Source: Eimeria praecox
Taxonomy: Eukaryota
Direction of reading: 5' to 3'
DNA: 64,000 nucleotides
NCBI GenBank assembly: GCA_963920595.1
Contig: OY986947.1
Span: forward strand, 4,588,001-4,652,000
In this document: piece by piece, positions 56,849-58,301 of the stretch
How the letters are laid out: every line of letters begins with the position of its first letter
Numbering within the stretch: position 1 is the stretch's first letter
Notes under the pieces: model-generated
Told to the model about the DNA's origin: nothing
Database searches by the model: none
What the model saw: the letters and a program-made list of their open reading frames with translations, nothing else
Translations under genes and position numbers: made by a program

Positions 56849-57592
56849 ATCTATCAACATGTTGTGAAGCATCTTTAACAGTACAGAACGCCCCTCTAAA
56901 TAACTAACTAACTAAATAAATAAATAAAATAAATAATTAATTAATTAAATAATTAAATAATTAATTAGTTAATTAAATAAATAATTAAATAAATAATTAA
57001 CTACCTAGCAATATGTTGTGAAGCGTCTCTAAAAGTAGAGAACGCCCCTATAAATAGTAAATAGCTAACTAAATAAATAAAATAATTAATTAATTAACTA
57101 ACTAATTAATTAATTAAATAAATAATTAAATAAATACCTACCTATCAATATGTTGTGAAGCATCTTTAAGAGTACAGAATGCTCCTGTAAATAATTAACT
57201 AACTGACTAAATAACTAAATAAAATAATTAAGTAATTAACTAATTAATCAATTAATTAATTAATTAATTAACTAATTAACTAATTAACTAATTAAATAAT
57301 TAAATAATTAATTAAATAATTAAATAATTAAATAAATACCTACCTATCAATATGTTGTGATGCGTCTTTAAGAGTACAGAATGCCCCTGTAAATAATTAA
57401 CTAACTAACTAAATAACTAAATAAATAATTAAATAATTAATTAATTAACTAATTAACTAATTAACTAATTAAATAATTAAATAAATAAATAAATACCTAC
57501 CTATCAATATGTTGTGATGCATCTTTAAGAGTACAGAATGCTCCTGTAAATAACTAATTAACTAATTAATTAAATAACTAATTAAATAATTA

Positions 57593-57636
<44 letters not shown>

Positions 57637-57759
57637 CCTACCTATCAATATGTTGTGATGCGTCTTTAAGAGTACAGAATGCTCCTGTAAATAACTAACT
57701 AACTAAATAACTAAATAAAATAATTAAGAAACTAATTAAATAATTAATTAACTAATTAA

Positions 57760-57790
<31 letters not shown>

Positions 57791-58301
57791 CCTACCTATC
57801 AATATGTTGTGATGCGTCTTTAAGAGTACAGAATGCTCCTGTAAATAATTAACTAACTAACTAACTAAATAAATAAAATAATTAATTAATTAACTAATTA
57901 ACTAATTAAATAAATAATTAATTAATTAATTAATTAAATAAATAAATAAATACCTACCTATCAATATGTTGTGATGCATCTTTAAGAGTACAGAATGCTC
58001 CTGTAAATAACTAACTAACTAACTAAATAACTAAATAAAATATTTAATTAACTAATTAACTAATTAACTAATTAACTAGTTAATTAATTAATTAATTAAA
58101 TAAATAAATAAATACCTACCCATCAATATGTTGTGATGCGTCTTTAAGAGTACAGAATGCTCCTGTAAATAACTAACTAACTAACTAAATAACTAAATAA
58201 AATAATTAATTAATTAATTAATTAATTAATTAATTAATTAATTAAATACCTACCTATCAATATGTTGTGATGCGTCTTTAAGAGTACAGAATGCTCCTGT
58301 A
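56849..58301 (-). repeat. Intronic array: 9 extra copies of GAPDH exon-6 3' end plus donor, separated by variable AT-rich spacers
   Basis: Unit ACAGGAGCATTCTGTACTCTTAAAGAYGCATCACAACATATTGATAG|GTAGGTATTT at ~58114, 57952, 57790, 57636, 57494, 57338, 57136, 57002, 56851; the real exon end is at 58254-58300. Confidence 0.97.

What the first reader, a model, noticed from the sequence alone, without database searches (positions are those of the whole stretch)
56849..58301. GAPDH intron holds a polar array of 9 copies of its own exon end plus donor; shared variants are synonymous, like a record of older exon versions
Seen: a ~55-bp unit (last 47 nt of exon 6, ACA GGA GCA TTC TGT ACT CTT AAA GAC GCA TCA CAA CAT ATT GAT AG, plus GTAGGTATTT) recurs every ~140-200 bp with different TAAT/TAAC/TAAA spacers. 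Copies 1-6 differ from the exon by 0-1 nt, copy 7 by 2, and the distal copies 8-9 by about 7-8. Every variant shared by two or more copies is third-position and synonymous: GAC>GAT (copies 2,5,7,9), GGA>GGG (6,8,9), GCA>GCT (7,8,9), GCA>GCG (8,9). Amino-acid-changing variants are private to single copies. Inference: copies are spawned from the functional exon at the proximal end and pushed outward, so shared variants record earlier alleles of the selected exon and private ones are later neutral decay. The alternative is that copies are themselves under coding constraint. The architecture is CRISPR-like in form but exon-derived. Caveats: only four shared sites, and GAC>GAT lies in a CpG that could mutate recurrently.
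Basis: partly seen in the sequence, partly recalled or inferred. Interest (0 to 1): 0.9.

Follow-up and report, generated by a model that had tools for sequence, protein, structure and literature searches.

The report
Exon-end copies in parasite GAPDH introns
In an Eimeria-like parasite, two neighbouring introns of a GAPDH gene hold nine and six stacked copies of the exon end and splice signal just before them, a kind of repeat known from human and lancelet genes; the copies are likely unused, and the outermost ones probably keep older versions of the exon.

Summary
The array is real. Short-read contig depth fits the copy number (4.3x against 4.4x predicted; 5.5x in a second sample). This is an exon-intron-boundary minisatellite like the amphioxus 'mirages' and human F7 intron 7; the scan has noted such arrays in other genomes, once with the same 'older exon' reading. 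The record idea is fairly well supported. Across both arrays 5 of 5 shared variants are silent and 0 of 10 private ones (Fisher 0.0003; 0.016 counted by site), and the outermost copy carries the Val found in 11 of 14 relatives where the exon now has Ile. A strict CRISPR-like conveyor fits poorly: one variant flips 7 times along the array, 4 of 6 site pairs show all four combinations, and the polarity rests on copies 8-9 alone. No RNA and no sister-species DNA were found, so silence and ancestral codons remain inferred.

The parts
58254..58507 (-). GAPDH2 exon 6 (84 codons plus 2 nt); its last 47 nt (58300-58254) are the core of array 1; donor AG|GTAGGT, read-through meets TAG at once
   Evidence: 73% identical to Cyclospora GAPDH2
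58120..58166 (-). array 1 copy 1 core (private AGG>GGG)
57958..58004 (-). array 1 copy 2 core (GAT)
57796..57842 (-). array 1 copy 3 core (identical to exon)
57642..57688 (-). array 1 copy 4 core (identical to exon)
57501..57547 (-). array 1 copy 5 core (GAT)
57344..57390 (-). array 1 copy 6 core (GGG only: old-type 5' end, exon-type rest)
57142..57188 (-). array 1 copy 7 core (GAT, GCT: exon-type 5' end, old-type middle)
57005..57051 (-). array 1 copy 8 core (GGG, GCG, GCT plus 5 private amino-acid changes; donor GTAGTT)
56851..56897 (-). array 1 copy 9 core (GGG, GCG, GAT, GCT; private T>R, L>V, and I>V matching relatives; donor lost)
56305..58253 (-). intron 6 (1,949 nt) holding array 1; spacers of 87-155 nt built from AT-rich tetranucleotide runs
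55578..56304 (-). GAPDH2 exon 7 (Gp_dh_C domain to stop), open frame, GC3 19%
60076..60188 (-). GAPDH2 exon 5; its last 37 nt (60112-60076) plus donor GTGAGA are the core of array 2
59223..59969 (-). array 2: six copies of the exon-5 end starting at 59969, 59846, 59658, 59512, 59399, 59259; silent CTC>CTT shared by copies 3-6; private R>T in copy 1; donor GT>GC in copy 3
   Evidence: (D8)
60236..62401 (-). GAPDH2 exons 1-4 (leader and long N-terminal extension typical of the apicoplast isoform); no exon-end arrays seen in introns 1-4
10587..10860 (+). third, decayed exon-end array in another gene (Arc1p_N-like/GST_C exon): copies at 10666, 10701, 10734, 10831 with 7, 4, 1 and 8 differences over 27 nt

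Best explanation
Two consecutive introns of a coccidian apicoplast-type GAPDH gene carry tandem copies of their own upstream exon end and donor, a minisatellite of the 'mirage'/F7 kind that likely arose by a local 100-160 bp duplication, likely stays unspliced because the first donor is used, and whose outermost copies probably preserve older versions of the exon. Steps: (1) shown: tandem repeats of 60-160 bp period occur at several places in this AT-microsatellite-rich window, most without exon sequence; three straddle an exon end. (2) inferred: a duplication across a donor is tolerated because the extra donors fall inside the intron, while the real exon end stays under selection. (3) inferred: the array grew and shuffled by slippage or unequal exchange anchored in the 37-57 nt unique core, in at least two episodes: an old one that left copies 8-9, and a recent one seeded from the present exon that gave copies 1-5, with copies 6 and 7 as old/new hybrids. 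(4) inferred: between the episodes the exon could fix mostly silent changes, so differences shared by old copies are silent, while frozen copies decayed privately. GGG, GCG and the Val codon are the best candidates for true older states (exon G>A, in the direction of this gene's low GC3); GAT and CTT may instead be C>T changes that spread among copies.
For: Variant tables for both arrays: shared 5 silent/0 replacement, private 0/10, Fisher P=0.0003; 0.016 by site; 0.001 without the CpG site. Val in 11 of 14 aligned relatives, 7 of 7 eimeriid-like rows, and in copy 9. GC3 26% and 19% in exons 6-7. Hybrid copies and four-gamete failures at 4 of 6 pairs; spacer pairs 0/3 and 1/4 in array 2. Other tandem repeats at 2965-3173, 19292-19848, 21570/21715, 44149-44400, 52895-53100. 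Read-through of either real donor hits a stop within 1-2 codons, so use of any later donor gives a truncated message. Gene models of relatives P0004, P0007, P0018 end or run off at the same H-V-x-R boundary, so the intron position is conserved. Depth matches copy number. Precedent: mirage units of 150-160 bp with concerted evolution inside and boundary units excluded (PMC3087553, passages); only the first donor used in F7, LMNB2, PDGF (PMC1557585, abstract and introduction).
Against: Ordinary symmetric homogenisation did not reproduce the pattern in my toy models: shared variants were only 25-34% silent and all silent in 0-3% of 24-597 matching snapshots per setting; the unequal-crossover model gave 1 matching snapshot in 634, so it was uninformative. 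The exon must therefore be the dominant source, for which I have no demonstrated mechanism. The exon lineage seems to have changed somewhat faster per silent site than copies 8-9 per site (P=0.07-0.13 for 3 changes, 0.02-0.05 for 4). Private changes include several A>G, which weakens the direction argument. No RNA run of this organism was found among 24 listed and no sister-species DNA. In two human cases (6-16, CBS) downstream pseudo-donors are used.
Confidence: 0.68

Rival explanations
1. Indirect selection on the copies: exchange or deletion between a copy and the exon moves copy sequence into the reading frame often enough that haplotypes with amino-acid-changing variants in several or nearby copies are purged. 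Shared silent variants are then new changes that spread among copies, not older exon states.
For: Copies 1-7 hold one replacement change against three silent variant types; the donor decamer is near intact in copies 1-7. It would remove the rate tension and explain interleaved GAT and the CTT block.
Against: Does not explain the Val in copy 9 or the G-ending codons against low GC3. Needs a high exchange rate times population size, not measured and not simulated.
Confidence: 0.13
2. Strict polar conveyor: every copy is spawned from the exon and pushed outward, so position equals age, as in a CRISPR array.
For: Overall rank correlation 0.73; GCG and GCT change once along the array; CTT forms one distal block in array 2. 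The toy ladder fitted the silent excess best (all silent in 7-14%) and still showed at least one four-gamete failure in 82-91% of 244-284 matching snapshots through parallel mutation.
Against: GAC/GAT needs 7 flips among copies that otherwise differ by 0-2 nt; no gradient among copies 1-7 (P=0.35); copies 1-7 share a spacer start (TATTTATT) that the exon unit lacks; array-2 spacer pairs suggest copy-to-copy block duplication; the third array is not polar.
Confidence: 0.08
3. The copies are functional splice elements: alternative donors, or 43-nt cassette exons (each array-1 copy starts T-rich spacer + ACAG|G, an acceptor look-alike, and ends AG|GTAGGT) whose use shifts the frame and lowers GAPDH2 output.
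For: Acceptor-like and donor motifs flank copies 1-8; two arrays sit in one gene; pseudo-donor use is known for human 6-16 and CBS.
Against: A frameshifting product gives no reason to keep amino acids; copies 8-9 and the third array decay; copy 3 of array 2 changed GT to GC. No RNA to test.
Confidence: 0.04
4. The silent excess is chance plus recurrent mutation at a few unstable sites, noticed after the fact in an ordinary drifting minisatellite.
For: Only five shared sites; P rises to 0.045 for array 1 when counted by site; GAC G is a CpG; the window was picked from very many.
Confidence: 0.05
5. Assembly artefact (repeat over-expansion).
For: No contig spans the stretch; 56780-58262 was skipped as repeat.
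Against: Depth ratios 4.34 and 1.91 in X1 and 5.5 in X3; every spacer is distinct.
Confidence: 0.02

Closest known systems
Amphioxus 'mirage' minisatellites (Adh3; globins BflGb6, BflGb9; TnC). Ebner et al. 2010, PMC3087553, passages read; PMC3902484, one passage
   Same: Tandem duplication of an exon-intron boundary; unit about 150-160 bp; 3-6 units at 81-100% identity; concerted evolution inside with boundary units excluded; BflGb9 duplicates the exon's 3' boundary; reported not to disturb splicing.
   Different: Here in an apicomplexan, in two consecutive introns; spacers are length-variable AT microsatellites (unit 113-202 bp); a silent-versus-replacement contrast and an ancestral residue in the outermost copy are not described in the passages read (the paper's supplementary alignments were not opened).
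Human donor-spanning VNTRs: F7 IVS7 (37 bp, 5-9 copies), LMNB2 (100 bp), PDGF intron 4 (81 bp), CBS IVS13, 6-16. Borensztajn et al. 2006, PMC1557585, abstract and introduction read
   Same: First unit spans the exon-intron boundary, so the real donor is followed by identical pseudo-donors; 5'-to-3' scanning picks the first in F7.
   Different: The F7 unit has only 4 exonic bases, so it carries no codon record; here 37-47 exonic bases are copied. Splicing outcome untested here.
CRISPR arrays
   Same: Conserved repeat with variable spacers and a degenerate far end.
   Different: Spacers are related AT microsatellites, not acquired sequence; the repeat is an exon end; order is shuffled.

Membership tests
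Exon-intron-boundary minisatellite (mirage / F7-type) | Tandem units whose first member is the authentic exon end plus splice site | tested here: met
Exon-intron-boundary minisatellite (mirage / F7-type) | Reiterated splice signal in most units | tested here: met
   GT kept in 8 of 9 copies of array 1 and 5 of 6 of array 2
Exon-intron-boundary minisatellite (mirage / F7-type) | Homogeneous interior with divergent boundary units | tested here: met
   copies 1-7 differ from the exon by 0-2 nt, copies 8-9 by 7-8; not so in the third array
Exon-intron-boundary minisatellite (mirage / F7-type) | Copy-number polymorphism between haplotypes | tested here: inconclusive
   X3 core depth 5.5x against 4.0-4.5x predicted; contig depth is too coarse
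Exon-intron-boundary minisatellite (mirage / F7-type) | Normal splicing at the authentic site | not testable with these tools
   no RNA run of the organism among 24 listed; only indirect support from immediate stops and conserved intron position
CRISPR-like polar array | Unique spacers acquired from other DNA | tested here: not met
   spacers are mutually related AT microsatellites
CRISPR-like polar array | Strict positional age order | tested here: not met
   7 flips at GAC/GAT; no gradient in copies 1-7
CRISPR-like polar array | Dedicated integrase or leader nearby | tested here: inconclusive
   none among 16 of 327 listed frames scanned with Pfam
Tandem mutually exclusive exons | Each copy is a whole exon able to replace the original in frame | tested here: not met
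   copies hold only the last 47 of 254 nt (array 1) or 37 of 113 nt (array 2); the 43-nt acceptor-to-donor piece is not a multiple of 3
Apicoplast GAPDH2 of coccidia | GAPDH domains behind a leader and long N-terminal extension, closest to GAPDH2 proteins | tested here: met
   localisation itself not tested

The most novel reading that the evidence does not exclude
In this coccidian lineage exon ends are repeatedly and directionally re-copied into their downstream introns, with the live exon as donor (by core-restricted conversion or transcript-templated repair), so that many introns across the genome hold dated series of past exon alleles: a built-in record of synonymous substitution and of the lineage's drift to AT.
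Probability: 0.12. Interest if true: 0.62.

Novelty: new member of a known kind. Interest (0 to 1): 0.32.

Why it matters
As an element it is ordinary: the class is described in lancelets and humans, and my searches (listings only) showed no apicomplexan report, so it extends the class to coccidia at most. Its use is practical. Three such arrays in 64 kb suggest many per genome; pooled, they would give a within-genome series of exon alleles for timing silent substitution and AT drift without an outgroup. They test whether first-donor choice holds in apicomplexans, they are candidate length markers for strain typing, and they can mislead gene predictors (the copies score as separate tblastn hits).

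Tried and rejected
No whole genome is held for this window, so the genome-wide scan for exon-end copies could not be run; only the window was scanned. Outgroup DNA: a degenerate pattern for the exon end found 0 matches in metagenome contigs; the search for related loci gave 38 loci at 40-60% identity, none a close relative, and they were not used. Run X20, laid as a possible sister species, left 58263-58340 uncovered and showed no usable letters. The 21 small-share runs are no evidence; only X20 of them was laid. Per-variant copy counts in reads were not obtained, so it is open whether the second sample has the same variants. The unequal-crossover simulation gave 1 matching snapshot in 634; all simulations are toy models with arbitrary rates and homology rules. 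Spacer similarity in array 1 shows no periodicity (lag-3 P=0.4), so I did not build a unit tree; the distance matrix and four-gamete test stand in for it. In one search the stop check for array 1 was off by one base (it printed 0; the frame list shows the stop one codon after Arg), and the exon-3 GC3 is in the wrong frame; neither is used. The species was not identified: no listed protein matched the window. The repeats at 2965-3173, 19292-19848 and 21570/21715 were checked and do not copy a neighbouring exon end.

Full report
Setting. The window is AT-rich and full of TA, TAAA/TAAT, CAG and TAAACCC repeats. The gene at 62401-55578 (minus strand) encodes GAPDH behind a long N-terminal extension. 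Exon 6 is 73% identical to the Cyclospora cayetanensis protein, 67% to Eimeria flavescens and 57% to E. tenella; exon 7 is 70-74% identical to Cyclospora, two Eimeria proteins and the named GAPDH2 of Toxoplasma and Besnoitia. It is the apicoplast-type GAPDH2 of an eimeriid coccidian whose species I could not name.

Observation. The last 47 nt of exon 6 and the donor recur nine times in intron 6, with exactly the variants reported. Differences from the exon are 1,1,0,0,1,1,2,8,7. Three of 24 listed runs hold the stretch. In X1 the contig of the exon-type core has 4.34 times the depth of the single-copy exon, against 4.39 predicted from the assembly's 31-mers; a one-difference contig has 1.91 times, against about 2.2 for copies 2 and 5. 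In X3, another sample and study, the core is at 5.5 times, against 4.0-4.5. X1 may be the assembly's source and is then not independent. The array interior was skipped as repeat, so order and copies 8-9 rest on the assembly.

Intron 5 holds six copies of the last 37 nt of exon 5 with its donor. An exon with an Arc1p_N-like/GST_C match at 10340-10612 has four decayed copies of its end downstream; its exact donor is not established. Several other repeats of 60-160 bp period carry no exon sequence. The exon-end arrays thus look like the donor-straddling subset of a general local duplication process (inference).

Testing the record idea. In array 1 all 4 shared variants are silent and all 9 private ones change the amino acid (Fisher P=0.0014). 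Array 2 adds one of each in the same direction (5/0 against 0/10, P=0.0003). Random changes would be 21-27% silent. Positions 2 and 19 are hit in both copies 8 and 9 with different bases; counting them as shared sites gives P=0.045 for array 1 and 0.016 for both; dropping the CpG site gives 0.001. I aligned 14 apicomplexan-type relatives picked from the hits. At the exon's Ile, 11 have Val, 2 Ile and 1 Cys; all 7 eimeriid-like rows have Val. Copy 9 alone has the Val codon, a 3-6% coincidence for that copy and 8-16% for any private change. GGG, GCG and GTT against the exon's GGA, GCA and ATT imply G>A on the exon side, in line with GC3 of 19-26%, though private changes in copies also include A>G. 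The silent codons' ancestral states were not tested, because no sister DNA was found. One tension: the exon lineage would have changed faster per silent site than copies 8-9 per site (P 0.02-0.13).

Testing the conveyor. In positional order GAC/GAT flips 7 times and GGG 3 times. Four of six site pairs show all four combinations. Copy 6 has an old-type 5' end only, copy 7 an old-type middle only. Without copies 8-9 the polarity is not significant (P=0.35). In array 2, spacers 0/3 and 1/4 are mutual best matches, although units 0-2 carry CTC and units 3-6 CTT, which suggests a block duplication followed by exchange limited to the core (P=0.067, weak). The third array is not polar. Against my own first expectation, toy models of neighbour or polar conversion with a selected exon gave shared variants only 25-34% silent and all silent in 0-3% of matching snapshots, whereas an exon-seeded ladder gave 48-55% and 7-14%. 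So the exon does seem to be the main source, but in episodes and with shuffling, not as a steady belt.

Splicing. Reading through either real donor meets a stop within one or two codons, so any later donor yields a truncated message. Gene models of three relatives end or run off at the same boundary, showing a conserved intron position. Each array-1 copy begins with a T-rich run and ACAG|G, so the 43 nt up to the donor could be a frameshifting cassette; no RNA run was available to test this.

Comparison. Earlier notes of this scan pointed me to F7 and lancelet arrays, and I then read the papers. Borensztajn et al. (PMC1557585; abstract and introduction) list human minisatellites whose first unit spans an exon-intron boundary and show scanning to the first donor in F7. 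Ebner et al. (PMC3087553; passages) describe amphioxus mirages of 150-160 bp with concerted evolution inside, boundary units excluded, and no effect on splicing; PMC3902484 (one passage) adds TnC and PGBD5. The GAPDH2 arrays meet three of five listed features, with two untested or inconclusive. My eight answered searches (listings and abstract starts) showed no apicomplexan case and no paper on such copies as a record of old alleles; the library lacks most subscription papers, and Ebner's supplementary alignments, which I did not open, may bear on this. The scan itself noted the same 'older versions' reading in a sea-urchin gene (unchecked).

Verdict. A real feature and a new member of a known kind. 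The record of older exon versions is probable for part of the variants and follows from selection on one end of a repeat; the CRISPR-like framing is not supported. Interest 0.32.

Noticed in passing
window 59223-60112 (-): Second exon-end array in GAPDH2 intron 5: six copies, one shared silent variant, spacer pairs suggesting a 3-unit block duplication.
   Followed up: yes
window 10587-10860 (+): Decayed exon-end copies behind an Arc1p_N-like/GST_C exon; the unit starts at a TATATA shared between exon and intronic (TA)n, a possible microhomology.
   Followed up: partly
window 56851-58166 (-): Each array-1 copy is bounded by an acceptor look-alike (T-rich + CAG|G) and a donor, forming a 43-nt frameshifting pseudo-exon.
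   Followed up: no
window 19292-19848 (+): About six copies of a 94-bp AT-rich unit just behind the donor of an OPA3 exon; no exon sequence in the unit.
   Followed up: partly
window 2965-3173; 21505-21740; 44149-44400; 52895-53100: Further tandem repeats of 60-145 bp period, the last two built around telomere-like TAAACCC runs.
   Followed up: partly
window 35953-42930 (+): A 2,325-codon open frame, GC about 55% and rich in CAG repeats, inside otherwise AT-rich DNA; not characterised.
   Followed up: no
window 55581-62401 (-): GC3 falls along GAPDH2 from 51% in exon 1 to 30%, 26% and 19% in exons 5-7, and the protein has many Ile, Asn and Lys where relatives have Val, Gly or Ala.
   Followed up: no
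window 34459-34556 (+): 21-bp tandem repeat related to short AGGTGTATA-type motifs scattered through the window (also near 13198, 14208, 32946, 52074).
   Followed up: no
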